DNA of 52,402 nt, from the IMG/VR virus record IMGVR_UViG_3300034106_003179, positions 1-52,402 of that record. One strand, given 5' to 3'. The position numbers were made by a program, and so were the translations under genes. The stretch is from a virus. Its lineage: Duplodnaviria; Caudoviricetes. The notes beneath the pieces were generated by a model. That model made no database searches. It was not told the DNA's origin and saw only the letters and a program-made list of their open reading frames with translations. Of the stretch, positions 1 to 30,239 are shown piece after piece; position 1 is the first letter of the stretch, and each line of letters starts with the position of its first letter.

Positions 1-27
1 ATTTCGCTCAGACGGGGCGTTTTGGGC

Positions 28-45
28 GACCCCCCCTAGGGGGTC
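28..45. other. C/G-run imperfect palindrome, candidate cos/packaging region
   Basis: GACCCCCCC-TA-GGGGGTC directly downstream of the HNH gene, a position typical of cos in HK97-like phages (inference). Confidence 0.3.
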
Positions 46-110
46 ATGGTCTTCTATTACGTAAGGGCATTCTCTCCGCAGCATGATCCAGAAGTTCGAC
101 GTGCCCCGGT

Positions 111-416
111 TCACCCGACGCTCACCGTCTTGCGGCTGTGGCACGAATGACAAAGGCACTGCCCGTTGTCTACCAGATACCGCAAGTCTGGCCGCTGCGC
201 GACGGGGATGATGTGGTCAGCATGGGCCTCACGCTTCCTCGCACACACGCGACCGCAGGAGCGGCATTGCCAGTTGTCCCGCAGCAACACCTCCCGCCGC
301 CACGCCGCGTGCTTGGAGTCGCAGTAGCCGCGGGCCGCGGCATTGGGTCGATACGCAGCCTTCTTGATTTTGAAGTTGGCCCGCGGCTGCCGGAACATTT
401 CGATTCGCTGTGGCAT
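111..416 (-). CDS. HNH endonuclease (terminase-associated type)
   Basis: RDNWQCRSCG...ADHIIP...NGQCLCHSCHSRKT motif. Confidence 0.9.
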   Translation of the reverse strand: MPQRIEMFRQPRANFKIKKAAYRPNAAARGYCDSKHAAWRREVLLRDNWQCRSCGRVCARKREAHADHIIPVAQRPDLRYLVDNGQCLCHSCHSRKTVSVG

Positions 417-469
417 GAATTCATGCTACCACGCGACGCAACTGCCCGCTCTCGCCGCAATAGCGCACT

Positions 470-646
470 TCAGGCGGGCGGTTCAGGAATTGGCATCCAG
501 TGGGTCGGCATCTTCTCCCAAACGTCCCAAGCGTCATACGCACCGGGCGCGTAGCGTGTCGCAATCGTGACGTTCTTGCCGTCACTCAGCAGCACGCGGT
601 CGCAATCTGGCTTCCGCTCGCTCACCGGAATCCATTGGCCTTCCAT
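470..646 (-). CDS. DUF551-like small phage protein
   Basis: WIPVSERKP...PTHWMPIPEPP; RBS GGGAG before ATG at 646. Confidence 0.75.
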   Translation of the reverse strand: MEGQWIPVSERKPDCDRVLLSDGKNVTIATRYAPGAYDAWDVWEKMPTHWMPIPEPPA

Positions 647-685
647 GTCTCTCCCTTCGCTCTGTAGCGTCATTCAGCGTCGCGT

Positions 686-707
686 TCCGCAGAAACAATG
701 GTTCTGT
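686..707 (+). mobile_element. Possible attI-like site / start of first cassette
   Basis: CCGCAGAAACAATG|GTTCTGT resembles attI1 (AAAACAAAG|TT); GTTCTGT matches the reverse complement of the next R'' (GCAGAAC) at 6/7. Confidence 0.35.
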
Positions 708-709
708 GG

Positions 710-1003
710 CTACACCACTCGCCCAAGATGCTTCACTCGGGGCCAGTAGACCCCCTTCTTGTTTCCGACCTGGACTAGATACGACCGATGATCGCGAGGC
801 ATCCCATAGCCTGCGGCTGAGTTGCACCCCAATCCTTCTGGCGGCACCGGCTTCTCGCCAGCCTCAACGACGGCAACGACCACGCCAACCTTCCGCTTGT
901 AACTGCCGCCGGACGCGCTGCCCCAATACACGCCGTCTCCGACCTTGAGCCCCTCCATCGCAGAACCACGCGATGGAATGGACTGCTCATTCTCGTCTGT
1001 CAT
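710..1003 (-). CDS. Cassette-borne hypothetical protein (inverted in cassette)
   Basis: 97-aa ORF whose start lies in attC 960-1048; N-terminal ...PSRGS is encoded by the attC left arm. Confidence 0.75.
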   Translation of the reverse strand: MTDENEQSIPSRGSAMEGLKVGDGVYWGSASGGSYKRKVGVVVAVVEAGEKPVPPEGLGCNSAAGYGMPRDHRSYLVQVGNKKGVYWPRVKHLGRVV

Positions 1004-1048
1004 GTGTCATGCTCCTGTGTTCGCAGCCATTCATCGCAAGCGTTCTCA
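960..1048 (+). mobile_element. Integron attC site #1
   Basis: R'' GCAGAAC, 5-nt spacer, L'' GATGGAAT, L' ATTCATC, R' GTTCTCA; hairpin with two extrahelical bases; 89 bp. Confidence 0.85.
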
Positions 1049-1324
1049 CTGCGCTCGTTCCAGCAAGCCGCGTAGCACCTCTGCTCGCCGTGCCTCTGAT
1101 TGCAAATCGCCGTAATCGGAAAACCAGCGGATCGCCGCCCGCTCCTCGTCGGTGAGCGTGGGGTGGCCAAGCCGCACCACAGTCCCACCGACCATCGCGG
1201 CCTCGCTCGTCGCGTCCTTTTCCAGAAACCACAGCGAGTGCTGCACGCCCTCGTCGTCAATCACGGCGTAGGCCATCACCGCAGAACCACGCGATGCAGC
1301 GGACATCTTATCTACCTCGTTCAT
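1046..1324 (-). CDS. Cassette-borne hypothetical protein, LTDEER..LRGLLER family
   Basis: 92 aa; starts in attC #2, TGA stop lies inside R' of attC #1. Confidence 0.75.
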   Translation of the reverse strand: MNEVDKMSAASRGSAVMAYAVIDDEGVQHSLWFLEKDATSEAAMVGGTVVRLGHPTLTDEERAAIRWFSDYGDLQSEARRAEVLRGLLERAQ

Positions 1325-1369
1325 GTGTCAATCTCCTGTGTTCGATGCCGCTGATCGCTGACGTTCTCA
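1281..1369 (+). mobile_element. Integron attC site #2
   Basis: GCAGAAC CACGC GATGCAGC GGAC...GCC GCTGATC GCTGAC GTTCTCA; 89 bp. Confidence 0.87.
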
Positions 1370-1693
1370 GCCTAGCCGCTCCAGCAGCCGCCGAAGGACT
1401 GCTGCCGCTTCTTCATCATTCGGGCCGCCATAGGTGATGTCTTCGCAGTTTGCGATTCCAGCCTTGATCGCCTCCCGCTCCTCATCGGTGAGCCGCAGTC
1501 TGTTGATCTCCTTGCTGGCCGCCTCCGCAGAATCGCAAGCCGCCTTCCAGTCAGCCGCCTTGTCTGCCACGCATTTCTGAAGCGCCGTTCGGTACTCGTC
1601 AATCGTCGAATTGTCGCTCACAATAAGCCTCGCGTGAGGGTGGCAGCCGTGAGAACCACGCATTGGAGCAGACCCGGCATCGTCATGTGTCAT
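1367..1693 (-). CDS. Cassette-borne hypothetical protein, LTDEER family
   Basis: MTHDDAGSAPMRGS...RLRLTDEEREAI...LRRLLERLG; RBS GAAAGGA and ATG in attC #3; stop in R' of attC #2. Confidence 0.7.
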   Translation of the reverse strand: MTHDDAGSAPMRGSHGCHPHARLIVSDNSTIDEYRTALQKCVADKAADWKAACDSAEAASKEINRLRLTDEEREAIKAGIANCEDITYGGPNDEEAAAVLRRLLERLG

Positions 1694-1734
1694 TTCAACG
1701 TCCTTTCTCGGGCTGCTCAATGCAGCCGTACGTC
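1650..1734 (+). mobile_element. Integron attC site #3 (divergent, R' mutated GTT>GTA)
   Basis: TGAGAAC CACGC ATTGGAGC AGAC...GCT GCTCAAT GCAGCC GTACGTC; different arm sequence but the same pairing. Confidence 0.7.
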
Positions 1735-1931
1735 CACTTTTGAAAAGTTTTTGCGCGACCTCGCCCGCCCGTAACTGTTCCTGCCGAGCCGTAAGCGTTT
1801 TTGTCAGTCGTTCAGACCTGTCCAGAAACGCACGGATGGCCGAAATCTGCTCCGAACTTGGCAGCGGGGCGCAAGTGGACTCGCAAAAATCCACAGCGGC
1901 CTTTATGGCAGTCCGCTCTTGCGGAGTTCTC

Positions 1932-2228
1932 TCACTCACAAATCGACGCCGGGTAGACCCACAAGGCCGCCCGATCATTGGTTGTTTCAGTTCCGCCCCA
2001 GTATTTTTCGCCAGTGTCGGCGCAGAACACGTCGATGAGCGCCGGGTCGCTGAGAAACTTTGCCAACAAGTCTGGCCCACATTGCGGCTTCGGCTTGAAG
2101 CCCACAACTCAAAACGGGTCAACAAAGAGTCCCGGCCGCAACTCCAGAAGACGCACCGCGCCCGCGCACCGCTCAACGCGGAGAGAACCACGCGATGCAG
2201 CGGACATCTCATCACCCTCGTTCGTCAT
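1932..2228 (-). pseudogene. Interrupted cassette gene
   Basis: MTNEGDEMSAASRGS start in attC #4; in-frame TGA at codon 40 (2109-2111); the frame stays open to 1932. Confidence 0.55.
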
Positions 2229-2270
2229 GGTTGCTCCTGTGTTCGATGCTGCTGATCGCAAGCGTTATGC
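2182..2270 (+). mobile_element. Integron attC site #4
   Basis: AGAGAAC CACGC GATGCAGC GGAC...GCTGATC GCAAGC GTTATGC; 89 bp. Confidence 0.87.
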
Positions 2271-2537
2271 CACAGTTGGCCCGGCTATCGTCGTTCCAGT
2301 TACGGCCGAGTCGATTACTGCCCGCATCGCCTTTGCCAGCATCCAGCAGTGCCACCCGGCCTCTTCCTTCGTCTCGCAATCCGCCACCTTGAAATGCTGC
2401 GGCCCGATGGTCAGCCACGCGGAATGAGCTTCGGGCCAATCTTCGTCGATGGCCTTCGTTACCCGTGTGTACCTCTCAGCCAAAGCCCAGTCCCGAGCAG
2501 GCGCTGCTGTCGGAAGTTCAGGCATCATCCAGTTCAT
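2265..2537 (-). CDS. Cassette-borne hypothetical protein
   Basis: 90 aa filling the cassette; TAA stop overlaps GTTA of attC #4. Confidence 0.7.
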   Translation of the reverse strand: MNWMMPELPTAAPARDWALAERYTRVTKAIDEDWPEAHSAWLTIGPQHFKVADCETKEEAGWHCWMLAKAMRAVIDSAVTGTTIAGPTVA

Positions 2538-2538
2538 G

Positions 2539-2627
2539 GCATAACCACGCGATGCAGCGGACTCGCGATTCCGCTTTGTGGTGTAGTTTCGTCAGCGGTC
2601 GCGAGCCGCTGATCGCAAGCGTTATCA
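2539..2627 (+). mobile_element. Integron attC site #5
   Basis: GCATAAC CACGC GATGCAGC GGACTCGCGA...TCGCGAGCC GCTGATC GCAAGC GTTATCA; R'' is exactly complementary to the cassette start GTTATGC; 89 bp. Confidence 0.9.
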
Positions 2628-2674
2628 CCGCCCACGCCACCGGCTCTTTGCTGTCCATACGTCCCTCTCTGATT

Positions 2675-2914
2675 TCAAGAGCGTCGTTCCGTCCGTTCCA
2701 GCAGCCCGCGAAGTGTGTTTGCTATGCTTGCACACTCCTCATCATCGTCGTTGTCGTTGTACGCTCCGACAGCTTCAGCAATCGCCCTCCGCTCCGCTTT
2801 TGTGAGTCGCAGGCGAGCGATCTCATCGGCAGCCTCGTCCAGCAACGCCAACGGCTCGCCTTCCTGCTCTGCCCGTAATGATCGCTCTCGGAGTTCGTTG
2901 ATTATGTCGCTCAT
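2675..2914 (-). CDS. Hypothetical protein, LTDEER family
   Basis: EAADEIARLRLTKAERRAI...TLRGLLER. Confidence 0.75.
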   Translation of the reverse strand: MSDIINELRERSLRAEQEGEPLALLDEAADEIARLRLTKAERRAIAEAVGAYNDNDDDEECASIANTLRGLLERTERRS

Positions 2915-2966
2915 GTCCCTCTCTGCGGCGTGTTGTGCAACTATCCGGCAATTCCGGTTGGTTCAC

Positions 2967-3185
2967 TCAGACGAGCAGACTCGTCAATTCGTACGGCACC
3001 AGCGCCCGTATCTCTTCCACGATCTTGGCCGTCTCAGGCGACGGCTCGCCGTGCTTGAGAATCGACCGGCACCGCGATTCGATCAACTCCAGCGCGATGA
3101 GCGCATCACGCCCGGCGAGTGCGTACCGATGCTCCCGCTCGTCGTCGGGGTCAGCGAGGTCGAATCGTAGCGTGGCGTGTGCCAT
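2967..3185 (-). CDS. Hypothetical phage protein
   Basis: 72-aa ORF on the main coding strand with a plausible composition. Confidence 0.65.
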   Translation of the reverse strand: MAHATLRFDLADPDDEREHRYALAGRDALIALELIESRCRSILKHGEPSPETAKIVEEIRALVPYELTSLLV

Positions 3186-3323
3186 GTTCCATATTCCCGA
3201 ATCTAGAACGCCCAGATTGTATCAGCATTCATACGGGAAACGTGTCGCTTCGGATACGTTTCGGCAACAAATGCTAGGTACTTGTTCGCAACTACCTAGC
3301 CGTCTTCTGGTGCAAGATCGCAA

Positions 3324-3611
3324 TCACTCAGTCCAACCACTCGGCGGCGTTGAGTGCGGTAGCGGAAAAGTCACAGGCTCGCCGCGCTTGGGCGACCTGT
3401 ATTTTTCACCTTGCGGCGGCATCGCGGGCAGCGGCATCCAATGCGTGACCGTCTGCGGCGAGTGCGGCAGGTCGGCGTCTCCCCACCATTCGCCGCTTCT
3501 CAACATGGCGACGGTCATGTATCCGCCGCAAGCAATGAGAACGTCTTGATTGCCTTCCGGCAGACGTTCTTTGACTGGAATCCACTCGGGGAAGGCGTTA
3601 GTCTTCGCCAT
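3324..3611 (-). CDS. DUF551-like protein (second copy)
   Basis: EWIPVKERLP...VTHWMPLPAMP; RBS GGAG. Confidence 0.75.
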   Translation of the reverse strand: MAKTNAFPEWIPVKERLPEGNQDVLIACGGYMTVAMLRSGEWWGDADLPHSPQTVTHWMPLPAMPPQGEKYRSPKRGEPVTFPLPHSTPPSGWTE

Positions 3612-3757
3612 AGCCTTGTCTCCTATCTCAACTAGGGGCGGGTTAGAACCGGCGGCGGGCTGCAATCCCGTCGCCGGTTCGCATTTATACATCGCCCAGA
3701 CGGGGAAGGCAAGTCCAGCCAAAATCCCGACTCTCTCTAAGGTGCCTAGCGCAACGG

Positions 3758-3988
3758 CTATTCTCGGCCCTCAATCCTCAAATCAGACGCCAGGGCAACG
3801 GGAATAACGTCAACGAATTTCCGGCCATCCGCGTCTTTCCTAGTCCATGTCAGGTAGCCGCCCCCGCGCCAGCCTTTGGATTCAACGTAAATGCCGCTAA
3901 CGGTTGCTCCGTTATGCCACCACTCGGCGCGAGCGCAAAAACAGCAAACCACAACAGACATCAAACACAATAGGTGGGAGTGAACCAT
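3758..3988 (-). CDS. Hypothetical protein with hydrophobic N-terminus
   Basis: 76-aa ORF, lower GC. Confidence 0.4.
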   Translation of the reverse strand: MVHSHLLCLMSVVVCCFCARAEWWHNGATVSGIYVESKGWRGGGYLTWTRKDADGRKFVDVIPVALASDLRIEGRE

Positions 3989-4033
3989 TTCGTTGTCCTG
4001 CGAATAGTGCGCTAGGTTGTGGGCCTAGCGCAC

Positions 4034-4435
4034 CTAGAGGCTTGCCGCCTCGCGGAACGCGGCATCGACCGCCGCTTCGTCCAGCCCCAACGCCGCAGCC
4101 AGCGGAATTAGCATCGCGTGCGACCGTTCGATATACGGAGCGTACTCCCATTCCACCCGCACCACCTCGCGTTGCGTGGCGTCTGGGATCGCGTCAATGG
4201 CTGACTCCACCGCCGCCATGCTCACGCCATGCGAAACGAGCCATAGGCGAATCTGGCGGGCCGTGATTTGCTCCGGCACCGGCGAGGTGTCGGGGGCCAT
4301 CTGCCAGCCCTCCGGCAGCTGATCGTCGGGGATGGCCGTGCAGCCATCCGGCGGCGACCAGCCTTCGGGAACGTCAACGCGAACGAACGTCACGACACGA
4401 CCGGCAGCGTTGAGGATTGCGAGAGAGTTTGCCAT
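4034..4435 (-). CDS. Tail fibre-associated/assembly protein
   Basis: Follows fibre gene; ITARQIRLWL...EWEYA...GLDEAAVDAAF type C-terminus. Confidence 0.6.
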   Translation of the reverse strand: MANSLAILNAAGRVVTFVRVDVPEGWSPPDGCTAIPDDQLPEGWQMAPDTSPVPEQITARQIRLWLVSHGVSMAAVESAIDAIPDATQREVVRVEWEYAPYIERSHAMLIPLAAALGLDEAAVDAAFREAASL

Positions 4436-5781
4436 TAGATCACCACAATGCGAATGAAGCCCGGCGAGCCGTTGCCGCCAGCGCCGGAGCTGAACCCGTT
4501 GGCACTTGCACCACCACCACCGCCAGCCGCGCCATATCCAACGCCGTTACCGCCAGCGCCAGCCTCACCAGAAGCGTTGCCATTTCCACCGGCACCAGAA
4601 ATGCCAACCAGTTGACCGACAGAGCCCATCGCACCGCTGTTACTCCAACCGCTCGCGCCAGCCGCACCGGCCGTGGATGCTGCAAGGGGCTGCGCCGTGT
4701 TGCCGTATTCGGTGCGATTTGACCAGCCGCCACTGCCGCCAACACCAAACGCATCAGATGCGTTGACACCACCGCCGCCGCCGCCGCCACTTGCCACCCA
4801 GCCAGAATTGCCACCACCAACGCCCGCAGGGGGCGAAGCAGTTGCGCCACCGTTTCCGCCTTGGCCGCCCCACCCGTAATCCGACTGCGGTTGCGTGCCA
4901 ATGGGGCTGATCGCTCCACCGCCTGCGCTGGCCGTTCCAGCGCCACCTGCGCCGCCGCCTGCTGCGTTCCAGTAGAAAAATTGCGACGAAGTGTGAGCGA
5001 AACTACTGCCGCCAGCCGTACCGGCTGCACCGTCTTGGTTGTCGGTCGTTCTTGCAGCGCCGCCACCTCCGCCAGCACCCGCGCTAATTGTCAGCGTGCT
5101 TGATTCCAGTTGGGAAACCGCAACCCAGCCAGTTCGGATGCGCCCGGCAGCAGCACCACCTCCGCCACCACCGCGAGCCGTGCCAGCCGCGCCGCGACGG
5201 CCACTGCCACCGCCACCACCACCGCCGATAATCTCCAGCAGCACAAACCGTGCGCCGGTCGGTATCGCCCATGTGTACGATCCGTTGCTGCCTGTCGCTG
5301 TAGCAGGGGCAGATGTGCGGGTGAACTCAAAAAAGGCTGGCAGAGTAACCGCGCCGGTAGACCCGTTCACGCTCGCCGCGACGGGGGCAAATGTGGAGTC
5401 GCCACGCAGGAAGGTTGTGCTGTTCGCCGTGCCGCTGCCAAGCCTCGCCGCAGCGACGGTGCCGCTGCTGATGTTTCCGGCGTTGGTCGTGTCGGTCGTG
5501 GCCGACGCTGCGAGGCCGCTCACGTGCGAGCTGCTGATCGTCGCGGCCGTCGTGAGGACGCCGCCAGTCGTGGTCACGACGATCTGCCCGCTTGTCGCGC
5601 CGATGGCCCCGGCGTTGGTGAGGTTGCCGTGAGTGTGCGATGCCGCAGCCGCGCCAATGCCTGCGGGCGTGATCGACCCGTCCGCCACCAACTCCCACGC
5701 GGAACCCGTCCACGAATAGACGCGCCCGTTCTGCGTGCTTTGGTCGCCTACGGTCGGCGAGGATGGGAATGAAAATGGCAT
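4435..5781 (-). CDS. Glycine-rich tail fibre protein
   Basis: N-terminal FPSSPTVG...YSWTGSAW, HTH-GN repeat, C-terminal Gly-rich domain (GGGGGGGSGRRG). Confidence 0.75.
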   Translation of the reverse strand: MPFSFPSSPTVGDQSTQNGRVYSWTGSAWELVADGSITPAGIGAAAASHTHGNLTNAGAIGATSGQIVVTTTGGVLTTAATISSSHVSGLAASATTDTTNAGNISSGTVAAARLGSGTANSTTFLRGDSTFAPVAASVNGSTGAVTLPAFFEFTRTSAPATATGSNGSYTWAIPTGARFVLLEIIGGGGGGGSGRRGAAGTARGGGGGGAAAGRIRTGWVAVSQLESSTLTISAGAGGGGGAARTTDNQDGAAGTAGGSSFAHTSSQFFYWNAAGGGAGGAGTASAGGGAISPIGTQPQSDYGWGGQGGNGGATASPPAGVGGGNSGWVASGGGGGGGVNASDAFGVGGSGGWSNRTEYGNTAQPLAASTAGAAGASGWSNSGAMGSVGQLVGISGAGGNGNASGEAGAGGNGVGYGAAGGGGGASANGFSSGAGGNGSPGFIRIVVI

Positions 5782-5789
5782 GTGTGTTT

Positions 5790-6011
5790 CTATCCTAGCG
5801 TCTCAACCGCCGGAACCTCATCTGTTGGCTGGAGCGTTTCTAGCCATTCAGCGTAGCCCTGCCAGTAGCCGCCTTGGCCGCAATCCGCAAGCAGGTCAGC
5901 ACCGACGAGCCAGCCGCCGCGATCACCGCGCACCGGCTGAATCTGCCGGTCAGCGTACCGGGCGTTGAGGGTCGCCAATGCGCCTAGGTTGTCAGCGTTT
6001 AGCCACGACAT
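5790..6011 (-). CDS. Hypothetical protein in fibre module
   Basis: 73 aa, translationally coupled to upstream gene. Confidence 0.65.
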   Translation of the reverse strand: MSWLNADNLGALATLNARYADRQIQPVRGDRGGWLVGADLLADCGQGGYWQGYAEWLETLQPTDEVPAVETLG

Positions 6012-6829
6012 TAGATCGCCGCTCCGAGGCTGTTGATTAGGGCGGTGACGCGGGCGCCGAGCAGGGCGAGGTTTAGGGACTCGCCGATGCTGTAGTAGGC
6101 GATGCGATGATTTGAAAAATCTGCTCCCGGTCGCCGAAAGACATTGAGATTCTCATTTGATGGCGTTTCACTCGGCCCTGAAGAGGATGTGGTGGAGACT
6201 GAATTTGTCCGGACAGTAACGCTGCTGCTGTCTGCTCGCGCAGCACCAACGAATGATGGGGCAACTGGCGCTGACGCAGTAAAAAATGAATTTCTGTTGA
6301 TTGTCATTTGTCCACTCGTCAAAACCATCGACCGCCCAGTTGCATTACCTACTGCTAGGAGCGAGTTTCCAAAGCCAGCTCCGATAGTCGATACAAACGC
6401 ACTCAAATGCTTACTATTTTGCGGATCAGCATTATTGTTTCGATTGGTGCTTAAATACTTCGTAGTCCCATTTCCTGCTAGCCCCGTCCTCCGGTTGTAG
6501 TCGCCCGAGACAAAGTTGAAATTCGTCGGTGCAGGCCCAACAAGTGGCACCAGCGCGCCCTCCAACGTACGAGCGCCCGCCAAGACGCACGACGCTTTAA
6601 TGGCATTCCAGATGCCGTCGTTTTTGCACCCGATGACAAACAGGTTGATCGCCGCCGCGACTCCAGCCTCTAGTGATTGACCGTCAGCGATTTCGACAGC
6701 CGCAAGGTACGCTGCGGCAGACGGGTCTAGCGCCGTGCCACGCGGCAGCGTGACCGGCGCTGGCCTGCCGAGCAGCGGCCTCGGCAGCGGCGGCGGAGTG
6801 TAGCCGCTGTTCAGTATGCCGTCGTTCAC
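6011..6829 (-). CDS. Putative virion/receptor-binding protein
   Basis: GTG start overlapping upstream TGA; beta-rich, AT-richer C-terminal half. Confidence 0.6.
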   Translation of the reverse strand: MNDGILNSGYTPPPLPRPLLGRPAPVTLPRGTALDPSAAAYLAAVEIADGQSLEAGVAAAINLFVIGCKNDGIWNAIKASCVLAGARTLEGALVPLVGPAPTNFNFVSGDYNRRTGLAGNGTTKYLSTNRNNNADPQNSKHLSAFVSTIGAGFGNSLLAVGNATGRSMVLTSGQMTINRNSFFTASAPVAPSFVGAARADSSSVTVRTNSVSTTSSSGPSETPSNENLNVFRRPGADFSNHRIAYYSIGESLNLALLGARVTALINSLGAAI

Positions 6830-7215
6830 AGGTCGGCTCCGAATGCGATAACGTCCATGCTCTCGGCGTTGTGCGTCGATACAACGATCGACCACGAAGC
6901 AGACGGCAGGATGAGATTGTTGTAGGCCGTGCTGACGCGAGTTGCCTTCACGCTCGCGGAAACGGTTGCGGCGGCAATGCTGATTTCATCGACGAACCGA
7001 TAGGTCGTTCCGTCGAACAAAAACACGCGCACCATGCCTAGGGTCGTTGTCACGCGGGCCTGCACGACGATCTCTGCGATCCGCGTTCCGGTCGCGGCTC
7101 CAGTGATGAGCGTGGCAACGGTTCCGGTGCCGTCGCGGTTAGTGTTCGCGGTGGCGACGTTGACGGCCCCGATTCGTGGCGTGACGGCAAACTGTGGTTC
7201 AAGGGCCATGGGCAA
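6826..7215 (-). CDS. Small beta-rich virion protein
   Basis: Thr/Ala/Val-rich 129 aa within fibre module. Confidence 0.65.
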   Translation of the reverse strand: MPMALEPQFAVTPRIGAVNVATANTNRDGTGTVATLITGAATGTRIAEIVVQARVTTTLGMVRVFLFDGTTYRFVDEISIAAATVSASVKATRVSTAYNNLILPSASWSIVVSTHNAESMDVIAFGADL

Positions 7216-7219
7216 ACTC

Positions 7220-8821
7220 CTAGCGGAAAGTGGACGACAGATACAAATTCATTGAGGCTCTCGCTCGCGTGGTCAGGCGGGCGTTGGCAATGGTGCCGCT
7301 GGTGATTTTCGCCGCCGCGATGCTCGTCACCTTGGCGTCGGTCACGGCACCATCAGCGAGGTCTGCGGTCACGACCGCACCCGCGTTGATCGTCCACGTT
7401 GCACCGCCGCCGGAGACAGTGATGTCGCCCTTGCTGCCGTCCGTCACGCCAGCACCGCCACCGCTCACGCTGATGGAGGTCGGGCCGATCTCGGCGTACT
7501 GTGAACCAACCCAGCGGTAGGCCCGCCCCGCGTCAGTCGCGATATAGAGCAACGAGGCATTGCCCGTGGCGGGGAAGTTCGCGGTCGTGACGTATTCGAC
7601 CACCTCTTCTGGCGAGGCGGCGGCGACGGCCGCAGCGAAGTCTGTCACCTGACTTGCGCTATGCGTATGAGAGACGCCTGCGGCATCCGTGATCCCATAC
7701 CCCGCTAGGGTGGTCGGCGTCGATGTGATCGTTGACCACGACTGCGTGTGGCTGGCCGCCGCAACGTCCGTGCCGATCACAAGGCCGAGATTCGTGCGGG
7801 CTGCCGAGGCCGTCGTCGCGCCGGTGCCGCCGTAGGCAACGCCGATGGCGCTGGCGAGCCATGTGCCGGTGGTAATTGTGCCATTAGGAGCGAGGACAAA
7901 ATTTGTTTGAGTAAGACCGCCAACAATTGATTGGTGCAAGATGCCTGAAGAATTCAGGACTAGCCCGTGATGGACGCCGAACCCTCCAGCCGAGTTTATA
8001 GCAAGCAGATTGCCGCTGACCGTGCCGGTGAACGTCGGGCTGGCGAGCGGGGCTTTCGCGGCGAGGCTGTTCGTCACGGTGGTCGAGAACGAGGCATCAT
8101 TGCCCAGTGCCGCCGCGAGCTCGTTCAGCGTGTCCAACGCAGCCGGGGCCGCGTTCACGACGTTCGCCACGGCGGTCGTGATGTCGCTGGTGCGGGCGAT
8201 GCTTGAGGAGAGCCGGGCATCGGGGAGCGTGCCGCTGGTGAGCAGGCTGGCGTTCGTTGTGGGCGGTGCAGCGGCGACGACGGCCGAGGTGAAGTCGGAG
8301 ATTTGTGCCGCTGTGTGCTGATGCGTGAGCGGTTGGCGAGCGTCACTGAGCCTCGCGTCGGTCGTGAGGACAACCGAGCCGGGCAGGCGTGCCGCGTCCA
8401 ACGTGCCAGAGGTCAAGAGGCTGGCATTGGTCGTCGCCGTGGCATTGCTGCCTGCTGGGCCTGTGGCACCCGTGGCCCCCGCCGGTCCCGCCGGTCCCGC
8501 CGGTCCCGCCGGTCCCGCCGGGCCTTGGATTCCCTGAATTCCTTGAATTCCCTGCGCTCCCGTGGCCCCGGCTTGACCTTGCGCGCCAGCGGCCCCGGCT
8601 GGGATTGTGAAGTTCAGCACCGCCGCACTCGAAGTGCCAGCGTTCACGACGCTCGCCGACGATCCCGGCGCACCCGTGGTCACGGTGCCAACCGTCACCG
8701 ATGCCGCCGCGCCTGCCGTACCCGTGGGGCCGACGCCGCCGGACACCGAAACGTCAATCTGCGTTTCGCCGACCGAGGCCGTGATCTGCTGCCCGCCGGA
8801 TACGTTCGCGTTGATCGGCAC
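7220..8821 (-). CDS. Collagen-repeat tail fibre protein
   Basis: G-X-Y repeats (GIQ, GPA), TTNASLLTSGTL x2, AALDTLNELAAALGND fibre motif, PTTLAGYGITDA repeat. Confidence 0.8.
   Translation of the reverse strand: MPINANVSGGQQITASVGETQIDVSVSGGVGPTGTAGAAASVTVGTVTTGAPGSSASVVNAGTSSAAVLNFTIPAGAAGAQGQAGATGAQGIQGIQGIQGPAGPAGPAGPAGPAGATGATGPAGSNATATTNASLLTSGTLDAARLPGSVVLTTDARLSDARQPLTHQHTAAQISDFTSAVVAAAPPTTNASLLTSGTLPDARLSSSIARTSDITTAVANVVNAAPAALDTLNELAAALGNDASFSTTVTNSLAAKAPLASPTFTGTVSGNLLAINSAGGFGVHHGLVLNSSGILHQSIVGGLTQTNFVLAPNGTITTGTWLASAIGVAYGGTGATTASAARTNLGLVIGTDVAAASHTQSWSTITSTPTTLAGYGITDAAGVSHTHSASQVTDFAAAVAAASPEEVVEYVTTANFPATGNASLLYIATDAGRAYRWVGSQYAEIGPTSISVSGGGAGVTDGSKGDITVSGGGATWTINAGAVVTADLADGAVTDAKVTSIAAAKITSGTIANARLTTRARASMNLYLSSTFR
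8478..8521. repeat. 9-bp tandem repeat (CCCGCCGGT)x~5 encoding GPA collagen triplets
   Basis: Read directly from sequence. Confidence 0.9.
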
Positions 8822-9138
8822 TAGATGACCTCCACGAATCCAGTGAGCGCGGTACGGGTCGCGTTGTTCTCCACCCACTTCATTTGCCACCCGTAGGTGC
8901 CACGGGCCAGGGCGGCCGTCTGCGTGTCGGTCAGCGAGACGTTGAACTGCCCCGCCGCAGCGTTGGCAGCCGCGACCGTGAACGCCTGCACTTCGGCACC
9001 GCTGACGAGGCTCGTCATCGCCGCCGTGACGGTGTACCCCGTCATCGTGAGCGGGTTGAAGTCAATGAGCACGCTGAAGTCGTCGGCTCTCTTGAGCGAC
9101 AGACTGAGCGTCCCCGGTGTCTGGTCGTATGAGGCCAT
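8821..9138 (-). CDS. BppU-like/Ig-like virion adaptor protein
   Basis: GQFNVSLTDTQTAAL..GTYGWQMKW...LTGFVEV pattern upstream of fibre. Confidence 0.55.
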   Translation of the reverse strand: MASYDQTPGTLSLSLKRADDFSVLIDFNPLTMTGYTVTAAMTSLVSGAEVQAFTVAAANAAAGQFNVSLTDTQTAALARGTYGWQMKWVENNATRTALTGFVEVI

Positions 9139-9145
9139 TCAGCAC

Positions 9146-9469
9146 CTAGTTTTGCGGGGGTGTCTCGACGGCCCGCGCCGTCACCGTCTTTACACGATCC
9201 GTCAACTCTCGCTGACCGTGGGCCAGTTCTTCCAGCGTCGCGGCCTGTTGGGTCTGCACCGTCGAAATCTCCTTGAGCGTCTCGCTCGTCTTCTCTAGGA
9301 ACTCGACGTGACTCTCGACCACCGGCTTTACGAGCGTCCCGTGCAGCGTGATCGCCGCCTCACGGCCCAGCCAGATGAGGACGGCTAGTAACACGACCGG
9401 CACGCCGAACCGCTCGGCAATCCGCAAGAGGGAATCCAGCACGCCTTGCTTCAGTTCTTCTCCGGTCAC
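9146..9469 (-). CDS. Holin-like membrane protein
   Basis: One TM (FGVPVVLLAVLIWLG) followed by a coiled coil. Confidence 0.5.
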   Translation of the reverse strand: MTGEELKQGVLDSLLRIAERFGVPVVLLAVLIWLGREAAITLHGTLVKPVVESHVEFLEKTSETLKEISTVQTQQAATLEELAHGQRELTDRVKTVTARAVETPPQN

Positions 9470-9825
9470 GTCGTCAACTCCTTCTGCATTGCCACAAGCC
9501 AAACACGGTTGCTCGCTCGCTCGTTCCACCAATCCAGCATGATTTTGATGATGACCGACACCATCAGTTGCAGAATGAACGCCCAAAACATTCCGTATTC
9601 CTGCGGTTCCTTGCCGCTGAGAACTTGGTGCATCCGCTTCACTGATCGTTCAATGCTGCCGCACACAGCCCGCGTCGCGTCGTCGCTGACGGCGTAGTTC
9701 AGGTTCATCGGCTCCCACGACTCGATCGTGAGTTGCACAAGGTCGGCGAACACGCGGCGGCCGATGATGTGCTTGCCCAGCGGGGCGCGCCGCCACGCGT
9801 AGTCTTGGAGGTCAGCGAGCTTCAC
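9466..9825 (-). CDS. Membrane protein
   Basis: C-terminal TM (FWAFILQLMVSVIIKIML); GTG start with GGAGG RBS. Confidence 0.6.
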   Translation of the reverse strand: MKLADLQDYAWRRAPLGKHIIGRRVFADLVQLTIESWEPMNLNYAVSDDATRAVCGSIERSVKRMHQVLSGKEPQEYGMFWAFILQLMVSVIIKIMLDWWNERASNRVWLVAMQKELTT

Positions 9826-10111
9826 GGCACCTCCCGTCGGCACATGCCTTGCCGCTGCCTTTGCAGACGGGGCATTGCATCCGAATCGAATTGCCATCAC
9901 CGATGACTCCGGTTCCGGCGCAGTTGGTGCATTTGCCAGCCGGGGCAGGGGGCTTCGGCGGCGTCGGGGCAATCTCGCCTTGCAGTCGTACCGCCATCCT
10001 CGCCGTCTCACAGGCGAGGTCGGCCGTGATCGCCGCGTCATCGACGGTCGGCGCGCCGCAGCCCTTGGCGAACAACAGGAACGTCCCGGTGACAAGAGCA
10101 GCGGTTTTCAC
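9812..10111 (-). CDS. Putative lipoprotein with DnaJ-like CxxCxGxG zinc finger
   Basis: Signal-like N-terminus ending KGC; CTNCAGTG and CPVCKGSG. Confidence 0.6.
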   Translation of the reverse strand: MKTAALVTGTFLLFAKGCGAPTVDDAAITADLACETARMAVRLQGEIAPTPPKPPAPAGKCTNCAGTGVIGDGNSIRMQCPVCKGSGKACADGRCREAR

Positions 10112-11028: not shown

Positions 11029-11031
11029 GTG

Positions 11032-11511
11032 TCACCCCCCGTGGATGCCAGCCCAGGCGATTGCCTTGGCGGCATCGCTGTAGGCGCGGCGCATGTCGGG
11101 AGTCACCGGCAAAACTTCCTTGCCCACCACTTCGAGCAGCACGGCCTCGGTCGCCTCACGCAGCCCGGCGTACTTGCCCGGTTGGTTGCCCGCGAGCCGC
11201 CGCCACGCGATGTCGAGAGCGAGGACGGTGAACTGCCGCAACGAACGCGTGTCGCTGAACACAATCTCGGTCGTGACGGCATCCCCCGCGACGACGATGG
11301 CCGACTTCTCCCACGTCGAGGCCCACACGGCACGATCAACGGGCGACGCGGAACGCAGGGCGGCGGCGATCCCGGCAACCTTGGCTTTCATCTCGGGACT
11401 CGGATCGGTAACGGAAACGGCAACGCGCGGCAGGCTCGGCAACGACGGCAAGCCGAACGCGGCCACGTAGCCGAGTACGATCGCGACAACGATCCGAGTA
11501 CGAACGCTCAT
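11032..11511 (-). CDS. Membrane-anchored hypothetical protein
   Basis: N-terminal TM; ATGA overlap. Confidence 0.65.
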   Translation of the reverse strand: MSVRTRIVVAIVLGYVAAFGLPSLPSLPRVAVSVTDPSPEMKAKVAGIAAALRSASPVDRAVWASTWEKSAIVVAGDAVTTEIVFSDTRSLRQFTVLALDIAWRRLAGNQPGKYAGLREATEAVLLEVVGKEVLPVTPDMRRAYSDAAKAIAWAGIHGG

Positions 11512-11789
11512 TTCTTGGCCTTTGCCGTGTTGCCCAGCAGCACGTCGAGAAGTTGCTGGCAGAGGGAGACGCCCTCCATGCACTGGGCCGCCTTCAAGCG
11601 GGTGGCGAGGTCGAGGACGATGTGCAAGTCTTTGGCCGTCACGGTTGCGGCCTTTTCACCTGCGGCTTCCAGCGGGGTTTCTTTCCAACCGGCTTGGACT
11701 TTTGCAGCCACGGCGGCAATCGCGGGGCCAGCGAGGACACCCACTGCCGCCACCGCGGCGACGAGACGAATAATTCCATCGGTGTTCAC
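11508..11789 (-). CDS. Membrane protein
   Basis: N-terminal hydrophobic helix; GTGA overlap. Confidence 0.6.
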   Translation of the reverse strand: MNTDGIIRLVAAVAAVGVLAGPAIAAVAAKVQAGWKETPLEAAGEKAATVTAKDLHIVLDLATRLKAAQCMEGVSLCQQLLDVLLGNTAKAKK

Positions 11790-14000: not shown

Positions 14001-14002
14001 GA

Positions 14003-29381: not shown

Positions 29382-30239
29382 ATGCTCCTACAAAATCTGT
29401 TCGACAACTTCTATCGCCCGCTGCGTCTGCGTGGCCGCTCGGTCAACACCTCTCGACTCTACGGCTGCACAATCCGTGCATTCGGCAAATGGCTCACATA
29501 CCCACCAACCGTCGAAGACCTCACAGACCTCACGCTGTCGCGGTATCTGGAACACCGGGCAGCGACTCGCAGCCCGTACACCAGCGAGAAAGAGCGGAGC
29601 CAGTTATGCAGCCTGTGGCGGTTCGCCGCGGACCGCGGGCTTGTGACGACGCGGCCGGAAGTGCCGCCCGCACCGCTGCCCGACCGCGTGCCGCGAGCGT
29701 GGACACTCGGCGAGCTTGGAGCGATCTACCGTGCCGCCGCCGCGACGCGGGGGTACGTTGGCTCCGTTCCGGCGGGCGTGTGGTACTCGGCCCTCGTCTC
29801 CGTGATCTGGGAGTCAGCGGAGCGCATCGGGGCGGTGCTGGCCTGCCTTCCCGGCGACTTCGCCGCCCCGCACCTGCACGTCCTCGCCGAGTACCGGAAG
29901 GGACATAAGCGGGACCGCATCTACCGCCTGTCGTCGCGGACGTGCGGCCTGCTCACGCTCGCCTGCGGCAAGGACCGCCTGCTGGAGTGGCCCAAGTCCC
30001 GCACGCTCCTGTGGGCAAAGTACGCCGATGTCGTGGCCCGTGCCGGGCTGGGACGCGGGCGGCACCTGTCGTTTCACGCCCTGCGCCGCTCAGCCGCGAG
30101 CCATTACGCTTCGCGTGGCGGCGACCCGGTGCAACTGCTTGATCACTCCAGCCCGCGAATCACGCACCGCTGGTACCTCGACCGCAGACTGACCGACAAC
30201 GGGCCAGCCCCGTGCGACGTGCTGCCGGAAATCAACTAG
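29382..30239 (+). CDS. int: Tyrosine recombinase / phage integrase
   Basis: ERIG (R), RKG (K), HALRR, LDHSS, RWY; RBS GGAGG. Confidence 0.88.
   Translation: MLLQNLFDNFYRPLRLRGRSVNTSRLYGCTIRAFGKWLTYPPTVEDLTDLTLSRYLEHRAATRSPYTSEKERSQLCSLWRFAADRGLVTTRPEVPPAPLPDRVPRAWTLGELGAIYRAAAATRGYVGSVPAGVWYSALVSVIWESAERIGAVLACLPGDFAAPHLHVLAEYRKGHKRDRIYRLSSRTCGLLTLACGKDRLLEWPKSRTLLWAKYADVVARAGLGRGRHLSFHALRRSAASHYASRGGDPVQLLDHSSPRITHRWYLDRRLTDNGPAPCDVLPEIN

What the first reader, a model, noticed from the sequence alone, without database searches (positions are those of the whole stretch)
960..2270. Inverted cassette architecture: attC supplies RBS, start codon and N-terminus, and R' supplies the stop codon
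Seen: all cassette ORFs are antisense to attC. In attC #1-#4 the central loop carries a minus-strand RBS (ACAGGAG in #1, #2, #4; GAAAGGA in #3) and an ATG. The left arm encodes a shared N-terminal peptide (SIPSRGS, SAASRGS, SAPMRGS). Stop codons fall inside the neighbouring R' box (TGA 1046-48, TGA 1367-69, TAA 2265-67). Known: classical cassettes are mostly co-oriented, with the stop in or near R'', and are driven by Pc. Inference: this is a mirror-image cassette class, in which each unit is a self-contained translation module read from the phage's minus-strand transcript, and the attC hairpin could gate translation.
Basis: partly seen in the sequence, partly recalled or inferred. Interest (0 to 1): 0.88.

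Follow-up and report, generated by a model that had tools for sequence, protein, structure and literature searches.

The report
Mirror-image integron cassettes in a phage
A lake-water phage carries a small array of genuine integron gene cassettes that are read backwards, so that the recombination hairpin of each cassette also holds the ribosome-binding site, start codon and first amino acids of its gene, a design shared by dozens of related viral contigs but not by the bacterial integrons that use the same hairpin family.

Summary
Five ~87-nt repeats (961-2626) are integron attC sites. A covariance model built from them finds 284 copies in 79 viral sources. It also finds the same family next to integron-integrase genes in Pirellulales (Planctomycetota) genomes, which fixes the window's + strand as the attC top strand.

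The phage arrays bear the marks of IntI-type recombination. Each cassette ends in an ~8-nt inverted repeat, and homologous cassettes in different contexts diverge at G|TT.

The genes are mirrored. The longest ORF is on the bottom strand in 138 of 179 phage cassettes, but on the top strand in 117 of 137 bacterial ones. A Shine-Dalgarno sequence plus ATG lies on the bottom strand of 143 of 284 phage attCs, against 3 of 212 bacterial ones. That ATG opens a frame of at least 50 codons in 109 of 118 cases. Stops fall in the terminal RYYYAA of the cassette.

No integron integrase is present in the window or in 50 other viral records, so this is an intI-less array (CALIN), presumably served by the host's IntI.

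Such arrays in phages are already published (Qi et al. 2023). I found no description of the mirrored class with an attC-embedded translation start. Use of that start and recombination in trans are inferred, not shown.

The parts
701..703 (+). GTT at the left (top-strand 5') boundary of the array. The first cassette begins at TT 702. No attC lies upstream.
   Evidence: The sequence reads AGAAACAATG|GTTCTGTGGCTAC. GTTCTGTGGCT is a common R' flank in other phage arrays. The filters-off model search finds no attC to the left.
710..1003 (-). Cassette 1 ORF, 97 aa. The start and first 14 codons lie inside attC #1. The stop is TAG at 710-712, nine bases before the AAC of the boundary.
   Evidence: GC1/2/3 = 0.66/0.47/0.69
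961..1047 (+). attC #1 (top strand +). R'' AAC 964-966, R' GTT 1042-1044. On the minus strand: SD AGGAG 1012-1016 and ATG 1001-1003.
   Evidence: R1 80.7 bits; fold; coordinates
1046..1324 (-). Cassette 2 ORF, 92 aa, of the LTDEER...LRGLLER family. It starts in attC #2. Its stop, TGA 1046-1048, lies in the GTTCTCA of attC #1.
   Evidence: GC3 0.73
1282..1368 (+). attC #2. AAC 1285-1287, GTT 1363-1365. On the minus strand: SD 1333-1337 and ATG 1322-1324.
   Evidence: R1 90.7 bits; fold
1367..1693 (-). Cassette 3 ORF, 108 aa, of the same family as cassette 2. It starts in attC #3. Its stop is TGA 1367-1369.
1651..1737 (+). attC #3, degenerate. AAC 1654-1656, but GTA 1728-1730 stands in place of GTT. 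On the minus strand: SD AAGGA 1701-1705 and ATG 1691-1693. The upstream frame meets no stop here, so cassettes 3 and 4 are in effect fused.
   Evidence: R1 56.9 bits; the 282-aa frame 1367-2215 stays open through it
1738..2182 (-). Body of cassette 4. Coding potential is split over three frames: 2109-2228 (39 codons from the attC #4 ATG), 1932-2105, and about 1740-1977. It is either decayed or holds several small genes.
   Evidence: no homologue in the 78 viral loci
2183..2269 (+). attC #4. AAC 2186-2188, GTT 2264-2266. On the minus strand: SD 2234-2238 and ATG 2226-2228. One pair of the inner stem is C·A on the minus strand and G·T on the plus strand.
   Evidence: R1 86.3 bits; the minimum-energy fold does not form the hairpin
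2265..2537 (-). Cassette 5 ORF, 90 aa. Its ATG (2535-2537) comes just after attC #5, and its stop TAA 2265-2267 lies in the GTTATGC of attC #4. The cassette ends TTATGCCA...TGGCATAA are a 9-nt inverted repeat when the G and C are counted.
   Evidence: In L005 and L032 the same protein carries an attC-coded extension.
2540..2626 (+). attC #5. AAC 2543-2545, GTT 2621-2623. The GC stem is extended, and there is no SD or ATG in the loop.
   Evidence: R1 87.9 bits. DNA fold -27 kcal/mol with z -4.2; RNA fold -48 kcal/mol with z -6.1.
29382..30239 (+). The only tyrosine recombinase of the phage, 285 aa. It is not an integron integrase. It sits beside an HTH_17 (excisionase-like) gene at 29016-29237, so it is probably the lysogeny integrase.

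Best explanation
Positions 701-2626 are an integrase-less array (CALIN) of five integron attC sites and five cassettes. It lies inside a roughly 52-kb temperate tailed phage whose host is probably a planctomycete of the order Pirellulales.

The attC sites belong to the same sequence and structure family as the attCs of Pirellulales chromosomal integrons. The window's + strand is the attC top strand. The phage's coding strand (minus) is the recombinogenic bottom strand.

Read along the bottom strand, each cassette runs as follows:
1. C of the R' box, spacer, L' arm.
2. Terminal loop holding the SD and the ATG.
3. L''/R'' arm, which codes roughly residues 7-14 (S-x-x-S/M-x-G-S).
4. The gene body.
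5. A stop codon inside the last six bases (RYYYAA).

The whole translation unit therefore moves as one integron cassette.

SHOWN BY COMPARISON: cassettes have been exchanged between phage genomes by recombination at G|TT.

INFERRED: the recombinase is the host's IntI acting in trans on the prophage or on replicating phage DNA. Transcription comes from the upstream phage operon. Ribosomes start at the attC-embedded ATG.
For: FAMILY AND STRUCTURE.
- In 85 aligned copies, 95.7% of cells pair and 12 of 20 pairs show changes on both sides. 0 of 500 shuffles reach this.
- Two bulged bases lie on the + strand 5' arm, which is the minus-strand arm opposite its AAC. They are separated by a 6-bp stem, and the distal bulge is T on the minus strand. 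This matches the rule quoted from Nivina et al. 2016.

LINK TO INTEGRONS.
- The seed pattern hits 85 bacterial stretches, mostly Planctomycetota, and model R1 gives 233 hits there.
- TIGR02249 integron integrase scores over its cut-off in 5 of 5 genomes tested.
- In 6 of 6 intI regions, the R1 hits on the 5' side of intI point away from it.

RECOMBINATION SIGNATURE IN PHAGE ARRAYS.
- The R' flank of one attC is complementary to the R'' flank of the next at positions 4-8 after GTT in 98/97/96/89/77% of 164 cassettes. For an attC's own two flanks the figures are 65/84/46/33/40%, the same as random pairs.
- Of 10 junctions where homologous cassettes have different neighbours, identity switches at G|TT in 7.

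MIRRORING.
- The bottom-strand ORF is longer in 138 of 179 phage cassettes and the top-strand ORF in 39. In bacterial loci the top-strand ORF is longer in 117 of 137, and next to intI in 22 of 30.
- The window's minus-strand ORFs show the coding GC1 > GC2 < GC3 pattern. Differences between homologues fall 35/11/10 at codon positions 3/1/2.

EMBEDDED START.
- SD + ATG lies on the bottom strand of 143 of 284 phage attC hits and on the top strand of 2 of 284. In bacterial loci the bottom-strand figure is 3 of 212, and next to intI 2 of 37.
- The ATG is in frame with at least 50 codons in 109 of 118 cases, against 5 and 11 for the other two frames. SD-ATG spacers are 4-10 nt.
- 83 of 157 distinct cassette proteins begin with an attC-coded peptide.

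STOPS. 135 of 165 fall within 10 nt before the AAC of the next attC, mostly as TGAGAAC (52) or TAAC (26).

NO intI. None in the window. 0 of 50 viral records score over the TIGR02249 cut-off.

PHAGE IDENTITY. Terminase, portal, major head and tape-measure genes are present, and the record is rated 97% complete.
Against: - No experiment or RNA or protein data bear on the translation start or the transcript. No RNA run holds the stretch (a blank, not evidence either way).
- The proximal extrahelical base on the bottom strand is C, whereas Nivina et al. say it is usually G.
- The same protein occurs with and without the attC-coded extension: window 2265-2537 and L043 without it, L005 and L032 with it. 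The leader is therefore dispensable for that protein, and a downstream start is possible.
- In the window, attC #4 opens only 39 codons, attC #3 has lost GTT, and attC #4 does not fold as a hairpin at minimum energy. Part of this array is decaying.
- 39 of 179 phage cassettes have the longer ORF on the top strand.
- Two repeats (L009, L078) are chimeras whose arms do not pair. This points to homologous recombination within attCs as well.
- In L183 a second set of five attC hits lies on the 3' side of intI, so that locus is not a clean orientation standard.
- The IntegronFinder and HattCI attC models could not be run.
- The host assignment rests only on the shared attC family.
Confidence: 0.8

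Rival explanations
1. The sites are attCs and the genes are antisense to them, but the SD and ATG inside attC are not the functional start. On this reading, translation begins at a downstream ATG or GTG, and the in-loop ATG is either a short leader or an incidental in-frame extension.
For: - The window's cassette 5 and L043 encode the protein without the extension, while L005 and L032 carry it in frame ahead of the retained internal Met.
- About a quarter of phage attCs are short (47-56 nt) and have no start. Their ORFs begin 5-40 nt after the attC.
- In the window, cassette 2 has Met residues at positions 7 and 17.
Against: - 109 of 118 SD-linked ATGs are in frame with at least 50 codons, against 5 and 11 for the other frames.
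- SD-ATG spacing is canonical at 4-10 nt.
- The motif occurs on 143 of 284 phage attCs but only 3 of 212 bacterial ones, and on the top strand of only 2 of 284.
- Only two of the three reading frames through the arm are ever used.
Confidence: 0.12
2. Cassette exchange is catalysed by the phage's own tyrosine recombinase, not by a host integron integrase. The system would then be a self-contained phage 'integron' with a non-canonical integrase.
For: - The window encodes a tyrosine recombinase at 29382-30239.
- 14 of 17 near-complete array-bearing viral records have a PF00589 match at E <= 0.001, and 12 of those score over the cut-off.
Against: - 3 of 17 near-complete records, including one with terminal repeats, have no such gene.
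- The window's enzyme lies 27 kb from the array, next to an HTH_17 gene, as in a lysogeny module.
- It scores 27-29 bits against Xer models and does not match TIGR02249.
- It shares only the catalytic-motif stretch with a Lacipirellula IntI, E 0.016.
- The integrase loci of three other contigs do not overlap their array loci.
- The attC architecture matches that of the host sites that lie next to real intI genes.
Confidence: 0.1
3. The repeats are phage intergenic RNA hairpins or homologous-recombination 'linker' modules (of the kind of the T4 promoter-stem-loop cassettes, recalled from memory). On this reading they merely resemble attC, and shuffling happens by homologous recombination.
For: - The repeats are 80-100% identical across phages whose flanking DNA is at most 77% identical or unalignable, so they would be good substrates for homologous recombination.
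- Chimeric repeats exist (L009, L078).
- Contigs from four lake metagenomes break and rejoin within the repeats.
Against: - Homologous recombination would not make each cassette's two ends complementary to each other while an attC's own two flanks are no more complementary than random pairs.
- It would not place the breakpoints at G|TT.
- The same family is linked to intI in bacteria.
- The extrahelical-base spacing fits IntI substrates.
Confidence: 0.04
4. The array is an assembly or binning artefact: a piece of host integron joined to a phage contig.
For: - The array lies within 2.7 kb of a contig end.
- attC bins are 10-30 times deeper than the flanks in metagenome contigs, and short-read assemblies fragment there.
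Against: - 78 independent viral contigs carry such arrays, and many are internal.
- Orientation, cassette size (median 282 against 586 nt) and the embedded starts differ from host arrays.
- The cargo is phage-typical: DUF551, DNA methyltransferases, Mom-like, HNH.
- In the window, an HNH gene and a DUF551 gene lie beyond the array and tail-fibre-like genes lie before it.
Confidence: 0.02

Closest known systems
CALINs (clusters of attC sites lacking an integron integrase) in bacteriophage genomes, Qi et al. 2023, Front Microbiol (PMC9892861; I read the abstract, the outline and all of section 3.4)
   Same: attC arrays without intI carried in phage genomes. DNA methyltransferases are among the cargo. 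Phage attCs were shown there to be recombined by IntI1 as bottom strands.
   Different: That paper reports 17 CALINs of two or more sites in isolated phages of other hosts, and it describes the clear cases as co-oriented 'as in bacteria'. Here the arrays reach 15 sites per fetched locus and occur in 78 viral contigs. The genes are systematically on the bottom strand, and half the attCs hold the translation start. I could not see its Supplementary Table S1, which lists the phages.
Sedentary chromosomal integrons of Pirellulales (Planctomycetota) and their attC family
   Same: Same attC sequence and structure family: AAC-CAyGC...GC-nnn-C-GTT, two bulges 6 bp apart, and a variable loop. Same chimeric-attC cassette boundaries.
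   Different: The bacterial arrays sit beside intI. Their ORFs are on the top strand in 117 of 137 cassettes, their median cassette core is 586 nt against 282, and SD + ATG lies on the bottom strand of only 3 of 212 attCs.
Translation signals supplied by integron recombination sites: ORF-11 and its TIR in attI1, and short ORFs within attC that relieve hairpin blocks (Jacquier et al. 2009), as summarised in the review PMC8876359 (passages read)
   Same: A recombination site doubles as a translation-initiation region. The attC hairpin in the mRNA interacts with ribosomes.
   Different: Those cases are on the top strand. They serve the next cassette or a short leader ORF by coupling or re-initiation. 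Here the bottom-strand copy of the cassette's own attC carries the SD, the ATG and 14-20 codons of the cassette's own protein.
Inverted cassettes in chromosomal integrons, such as toxin-antitoxin cassettes with their own promoters (recalled; only listings seen for PMC13108822 and PMC11023631)
   Same: Cassette ORFs lie antisense to the attC top strand.
   Different: In bacteria these are a minority and carry their own promoters. Here the whole array is inverted and appears promoterless by a sigma-70 scan (the scan may not fit planctomycete promoters). The attC itself holds the start.
Fused gene cassettes (review PMC8876359, section 2.4.4, passage read)
   Same: attC #3 has lost the GTT triplet, so cassettes 3 and 4 can no longer be separated and a frame runs through the site.
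   Different: Here the cause is a point change (GTA) in R', not deletion of the attC.

Membership tests
integron attC site | Conserved AAC (R'') and GTT (R') triplets at the two ends of an imperfect palindrome | tested here: met
   269 of 284 phage hits have AAC and GTT at the expected offsets. In the window 4 of 5 do; attC #3 has GTA.
integron attC site | Paired R and L boxes separated by an unpaired central spacer, with structure conserved more than sequence | tested here: met
   95.7% of cells pair, 12 pairs show compensatory change, and 0 of 500 shuffles reach this. The spacer is 3 nt against 4 nt.
integron attC site | Extrahelical bases on the arm opposite the AAC on the bottom strand, first and last separated by a 6-bp stem, with the distal one T and the proximal one usually G (Nivina et al. 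2016, passage read) | tested here: inconclusive
   Position, 6-bp spacing and the distal T are met on the minus strand. The proximal base is C, not G.
integron attC site | Variable terminal structure of widely varying length | tested here: met
   Total site length runs from 47 to about 90 nt. Of 235 unique phage sites, 57 are short and 178 long.
integron attC site | Chimeric sites in arrays: the R'' of a cassette's attC matches the first bases of that cassette (crossover at G|TT) | tested here: met
   Cassette-end complementarity is 98-77% over 5 positions, against the random level for an attC's own flanks. Breaks fall at G|TT in 7 of 10 junctions. In the window, attC #4 and #5 match 9 of 9.
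integron attC site | Recombined by an integron integrase as a folded bottom strand | not testable with these tools
   Only indirect evidence: the same family lies next to intI genes in 6 regions of 4 bacterial genomes.
integron attC site | Detected by the curated attC covariance model of IntegronFinder or by HattCI | not tested
   Neither model is available here. Rfam has no match.
complete integron | intI gene and attI adjacent to the array | tested here: not met
   The window has one tyrosine recombinase 27 kb away, and it is not IntI. 0 of 50 viral records (of 78 loci) score over the TIGR02249 cut-off. The array is therefore filed as a CALIN.
classical (co-oriented) integron cassette | ORF on the attC top strand with attC downstream of the gene | tested here: not met
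   The bottom-strand ORF is longer in 138 of 179 phage cassettes. All interpretable window ORFs are on the minus strand.

The most novel reading that the evidence does not exclude
Phages of planctomycetes keep a cassette pool of their own. It is mobilised by their hosts' integron integrases but built as a mirror image of bacterial cassettes.

In this pool the attC lies upstream of the gene. Its bottom-strand RNA copy is a portable, insulated translation-initiation module, and it adds a shared acidic N-terminal tag (M-x-D/E-rich...S-x-x-S-x-G-S).

Two consequences would follow. First, the recombinogenic bottom strand is the non-template strand of the phage operon, so transcription could itself promote attC folding and cassette exchange. 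Second, a mirrored cassette that landed at a host attI would be silent there, which would keep phage counter-defence cargo (DNA methyltransferases, Mom-like enzymes) out of host expression.
Probability: 0.45. Interest if true: 0.88.

Novelty: new variant of a known kind. Interest (0 to 1): 0.8.

Why it matters
Integrons are regarded as bacterial devices in which promoterless genes sit upstream of their attC and are read from one promoter. If this reading holds, three things follow.

1. The same recombination chemistry supports a second, inverted cassette grammar, and that grammar has spread through a whole group of environmental phages. This widens the range of elements that use integron recombination. 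It gives phages a modular way to swap small accessory genes, some of them DNA-modification genes likely to counter restriction.

2. It shows that an attC can be under double selection, as a DNA recombination hairpin and as an mRNA start region plus coding sequence.

3. It constrains models of how cassettes are born, because here the attC must be joined to the 5' end of a gene.

It also offers compact natural 'plug-in' translation modules to test. A practical point is that cassette annotation which assumes co-orientation would miscall the cassette genes in such arrays.

Tried and rejected
- Rfam: no family at gathering score in the window. At E <= 10 in 600-3400 only a chance snoRNA-like hit appeared.
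- Megablast of 1-20000 against 50,697 phage records: no match.
- Paralogous duplication as the source of the repeats: rejected. The repeats flank 78 unrelated protein clusters, and outside the repeats the window shares almost no DNA with the other loci.
- Terminator or promoter function: the sigma-70 and intrinsic-terminator scans of 1-6000 were at the shuffle level, and nothing lies on the minus strand within the array. This is weak, because planctomycete promoters may differ.
- Cargo function: the window's cassette proteins have no Pfam or PHROG family. The protein-atlas look-up of 1046-1324 gave only unnamed viral clusters at 0.80 and structure rows with TM < 0.5, treated as leads only.
- Expression: no RNA holder was listed for 600-3300, so neither strand of transcription nor expression could be examined.
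- Laying contigs of four DNA runs: attC bins were much deeper than the flanks and many joints run between attCs. Most joints have sides under 30 letters, and the depths sum over other organisms. I use this only as a hint that the attC family is abundant and that cassette 5 also occurs with another attC (joint 2542>2186, side 64-68, three runs).
- I checked whether the integrases of three other contigs lie within their array loci. They do not.
- Literature searches for a prior description of bottom-strand starts in attC, or of mirrored phage cassettes, found none in the held library. Subscription papers and supplements were not searchable, and the supplement of Qi et al. 2023 listing its phages was not seen.

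ROWS DROPPED.
- In one search I used 212 of the 233 bacterial hits (those with E up to about 6e-5).
- In one search I used 37 of the 38 hits (one partial hit was left out).
- In one search I searched 50 of the 78 viral loci because of a size limit.
- Cassettes with more than 1500 nt (phage) or 2500 nt (bacteria) between sites were skipped, and identical cassettes were counted once.
Full report
WHAT IS IN THE SEQUENCE. The window is a complete-looking virus record: 52,402 b, rated 97% complete and linear, with 63% G+C. By third-position G+C nearly all of its genes lie on the minus strand. PHROG matches identify a large terminase (48056-49663), portal, major head protein, tape-measure protein (35073-38903), helicases and primase, tail-fibre-like proteins (7220-8890 and 4435-5781) and an HNH endonuclease (111-416). 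The one clear + strand gene is a 285-aa tyrosine recombinase (29382-30239), which sits next to an HTH_17 gene. This is a temperate tailed phage.

Between the tail-fibre-like genes and the HNH gene lies a family of ~87-nt repeats. The repeat finder gives four copies of 93 nt and a fifth, weaker one. A 20-nt core matches five times against 0.02 expected. All five are at 961-2626 and all are in one orientation.

THE REPEATS ARE STRUCTURED AND WIDESPREAD. Each copy folds as follows:
- an outer 5-bp helix (GAAC/GTTC);
- a 3-by-4-nt internal loop;
- a 5-bp helix, a bulge, a 6-bp helix, a bulge, and 4 or more further pairs;
- a loop of 3 to about 40 nt.

A two-arm pattern taken from the window hits 78 IMG/VR contigs of 4-154 kb (99 copies). 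It also hits 85 stretches of bacterial genomes, mostly Pirellulales and other Planctomycetota, with some canonical-looking sites in proteobacterial and Nitrospirota MAGs.

In an alignment of 85 copies, 95.7% of cells pair and 12 of 20 pairs show compensatory changes. No shuffle out of 500, and no slid register, comes close. The covariance model built from the alignment (R1) finds 284 sites in the window plus the 78 viral loci. Within a locus all sites are on one strand. They are typically 280-420 nt apart, with up to 15 per fetched locus. In the window the model finds exactly the five sites, even with filters off, and it separates the strands by more than 40 bits.

THEY ARE INTEGRON attC SITES, AND THE + STRAND IS THE TOP STRAND. 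Three independent lines agree.

(i) Link to intI. R1 finds 233 sites in the bacterial loci. All five bacterial genomes I tested carry integron integrases over the curated TIGR02249 cut-off, while the same search gave no over-cut-off hit in 14 control genomes. I fetched 20 kb around six of these intI genes. In each, the R1 hits on the 5' side of intI lie on the strand that reads away from intI, which is the canonical arrangement. One locus, L183, also has five hits on the 3' side, so it is not clean. In these arrays the longer ORF is on the model's strand in 22 of 30 cassettes.

(ii) Geometry of the bulges. Nivina et al. 2016 state that the extrahelical bases lie on the arm opposite the AAC on the bottom strand. 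They also state that the first and last are separated by a 6-bp stem, that the distal one is a conserved T, and that the proximal one is usually G (passages read). On the window's minus strand the two bulges are on the arm opposite its AAC, 6 bp apart, and the distal one is T. The proximal one is C, which is the one departure.

(iii) Cassette boundaries. In an integron array each attC is a chimera, so the R'' of a cassette's attC matches the first bases of that same cassette. Over 164 non-redundant phage cassettes, the R' flank of the upstream site and the R'' flank of the downstream site are complementary at positions 4-8 after GTT in 98, 97, 96, 89 and 77% of cases. For the two flanks of one site the figures are 65, 84, 46, 33 and 40%, the same as for random pairs. 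In the window, attC #4 and #5 give GTTATGCCA and TGGCATAAC, a 9 of 9 match.

I then looked at homologous cassettes in different loci (35 pairs). Ten junctions have unrelated neighbours. In seven, identity switches to non-identity exactly at G|TT of the R' box. In one it switches about 7 nt earlier. In one it runs 23 nt into a shared attC arm. One is unreadable because of an indel. This also shows that the attC at the top-strand 3' end travels with the cassette, as in integrons.

THERE IS NO INTEGRON INTEGRASE IN THE PHAGES. The window's recombinase scores 27-29 bits on Xer models, does not match TIGR02249, and shares only the catalytic-motif stretch with a Lacipirellula IntI. Of 50 viral records searched (of the 78 loci), none has a TIGR02249 match over the cut-off. 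Seventeen of these records are at least 90% complete. Fourteen of those 17 have some tyrosine recombinase and three have none. The arrays are therefore CALINs. The simplest reading is that host IntI acts in trans. A role for the phage recombinases is not excluded.

THE CASSETTES ARE MIRRORED.
- Phage cassettes: the longest ORF lies on the attC bottom strand in 138 of 179 and on the top strand in 39. Median lengths are 102 and 76 aa, and the median cassette core is 282 nt.
- Bacterial loci, same test: top strand in 117 of 137 and bottom strand in 20, with a median core of 586 nt (212 of the 233 hits used).
- The window's minus-strand ORFs have the coding pattern GC1 > GC2 < GC3, and the + strand ORFs do not. 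In six gap-free homologous pairs the differences fall 35, 11 and 10 at codon positions 3, 1 and 2.

THE attC CARRIES THE START.
- An SD-like motif followed after 4-10 nt by ATG occurs on the bottom strand of 143 of 284 phage sites and on the top strand of 2. It occurs on the bottom strand of 3 of 212 bacterial sites and of 2 of 37 intI-adjacent sites.
- In 118 distinct contexts, the SD-linked ATG is in frame with at least 50 codons in 109 (median 101 codons). The two other frames give 5 and 11.
- Of 165 cassettes, the longest bottom-strand ORF starts inside the cassette's own attC in 102 and downstream of it in 55 (most of these within 40 nt). In the remaining 8 it starts upstream of the attC.
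- Only two of the three frames through the arm are used. One gives ...S-x-x-S/M-x-G-S and the other ...G-P-L-H-R-V-V. 83 of 157 distinct cassette proteins begin with such a peptide.
- Stops fall within 10 nt before the AAC of the next site in 135 of 165 cassettes, mainly as TGAGAAC (52) and TAAC (26). By the G|TT rule these bases are the last six of the ORF's own cassette. SD, start, N-terminus, body and stop therefore move as one unit.

Of 235 unique phage attCs, 118 have SD + ATG, 60 are long without it, and 57 are short 47-56-nt hairpins. The window's attC #5 is of the long, non-coding kind.

HOW THE HAIRPIN AND THE START RELATE. Folded as RNA, the window's attC #1 and #2 present the SD and AUG in an open loop of about 36 nt, with codons 7-14 in the 3' arm. 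attC #3 is partly paired. attC #4 does not form the hairpin at minimum energy, because one inner pair is C·A on this strand. In another subfamily (L008) the SD is CAGGAG inside the stem, paired with CUCCUG. Gating by the hairpin is thus plausible for some subfamilies. For the window's sites 'presentation in a loop' fits better. Neither idea is tested.

CARGO AND SPREAD. The 157 cassette proteins fall into 78 clusters. The largest has 54 members and includes the window's 1046-1324, 1367-1693 and the non-cassette 2675-2914. It shares ...LTDEER-AI...LRGLLER and has no Pfam or PHROG family. Fourteen proteins are DUF551-like. The remaining cluster representatives include C5, N6/N4 and Dam-type DNA methyltransferases, a Mom-like protein, a PAPS-reductase-like protein and HNH endonucleases. 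This is phage accessory and anti-restriction-type content, in line with the methyltransferases Qi et al. noted.

One protein occurs with different attCs. The window and L043 start at MNWMM..., while L005 and L032 carry an in-frame attC-coded extension ahead of that Met. The leader is therefore exchangeable and not essential to that protein.

Outside the attCs the window shares little DNA with the other loci. The attC bins are hit in 40-45 of the 78 loci at 80-100% identity, while flanking bins are hit in 0-7 loci at 66-77%. Two repeats (L009, L078) are chimeras with non-pairing arms, so homologous exchange inside attCs also happens.

STATE OF THE WINDOW'S ARRAY. The five cassettes, in top-strand order, are 702-1042, 1043-1363, 1364-~1728, ~1729-2264 and 2265-2621. 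The array starts at a lone GTT (701-703) with no attC to its left. attC #3 has GTA in place of GTT and gives no stop, so cassettes 3 and 4 are fused. The body of cassette 4 is split over three frames. Genes of cassette-like families flank the array without attCs: DUF551 at 470-673 and 3324-3722, and the LTDEER family at 2675-2914.

COMPARISON WITH WHAT IS KNOWN.
- Qi et al. 2023 already reported attC clusters without integrase in phages: 17 CALINs, attCs recombined by IntI1, and methyltransferase cargo. They described the clear cases as oriented as in bacteria.
- Recombination sites that supply translation signals are also known, namely ORF-11 in attI1 and short ORFs within attC that relieve the hairpin block. 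Both are on the top strand and act on the next gene.
- Inverted cassettes are known as a minority with their own promoters (recalled).
- Six full-text searches found no description of a systematically mirrored cassette class, or of an attC whose bottom-strand copy holds the SD, ATG and N-terminal codons of its own gene.

I therefore file this as a new variant of a known kind: genuine attC cassettes and a CALIN in a phage, with a new cassette grammar.

VERDICT. Comparison shows the attC identity, the orientation, recombination at G|TT, and the phage-specific enrichment and in-frame nature of the embedded starts. Four points remain inferred: use of the start in vivo, the read-through transcript, host IntI as the recombinase, and the planctomycete host. 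Confidence in the overall explanation is 0.8, and interest is 0.8.

Noticed in passing
window 1046-1324, 1367-1693, 2675-2914 (minus strand): Three paralogues of a small protein family share ...LTDEER-AI... and a C-terminal LRGLLER. It is the largest cargo cluster in the phage arrays (54 of 157 proteins) and has no Pfam or PHROG family. The N-terminal halves vary widely. The copy at 2675-2914 has no attC.
   Followed up: partly
window 1651-1737: attC #3 has GTA (1728-1730) in place of the conserved GTT and no stop for the upstream frame. A 282-aa frame (1367-2215) therefore runs through the site. This looks like a fused, immobilised cassette pair.
   Followed up: partly
window 1738-2228: The cassette between attC #3 and #4 has coding signal in three frames (2109-2228, 1932-2105, about 1740-1977) and no homologue in the 78 viral loci. 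It could be a frameshifted gene or several mini-genes.
   Followed up: no
window 470-673 and 3324-3722: DUF551 genes flank the array without attCs. DUF551-like proteins are also cassette cargo in other phages (14 of 157). Some resident genes may be former cassettes whose attCs have decayed, or the source of new cassettes.
   Followed up: no
L009 5524-5610 and L078 1746-1829: Chimeric attCs. The 5' arm is of the GGAATGG type and the 3' arm of the CCGCTG type, so the inner stem cannot pair. This is apparently homologous recombination within the shared loop sequence.
   Followed up: no
L090 4162-4247 (Pirellulales MAG contig): A bacterial-collection attC with a phage-style ACAGGAG...ATG on the bottom strand. 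It is either a prophage array or a mirrored cassette inside a host array.
   Followed up: no
L183 13056-19379 (Novipirellula chromosome): A second run of five attC hits lies on the 3' side of an intI gene and points away from it. This genome has three full-length intI genes.
   Followed up: no
window 1003-1169, 1337-1503, 2172-2338, 2506-2672: In contigs of four lake-water DNA runs, the bins holding attCs have summed depths of about 115-590, against about 5-20 for the phage flanks. This attC family is very abundant in those communities.
   Followed up: partly
L008 10923-11010 and related sites: In one attC subfamily the Shine-Dalgarno sequence (CAGGAG) is part of the L' stem and pairs with CTCCTG of the L'' arm, with the ATG just inside the stem. 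This is a natural candidate for hairpin-controlled initiation.
   Followed up: partly
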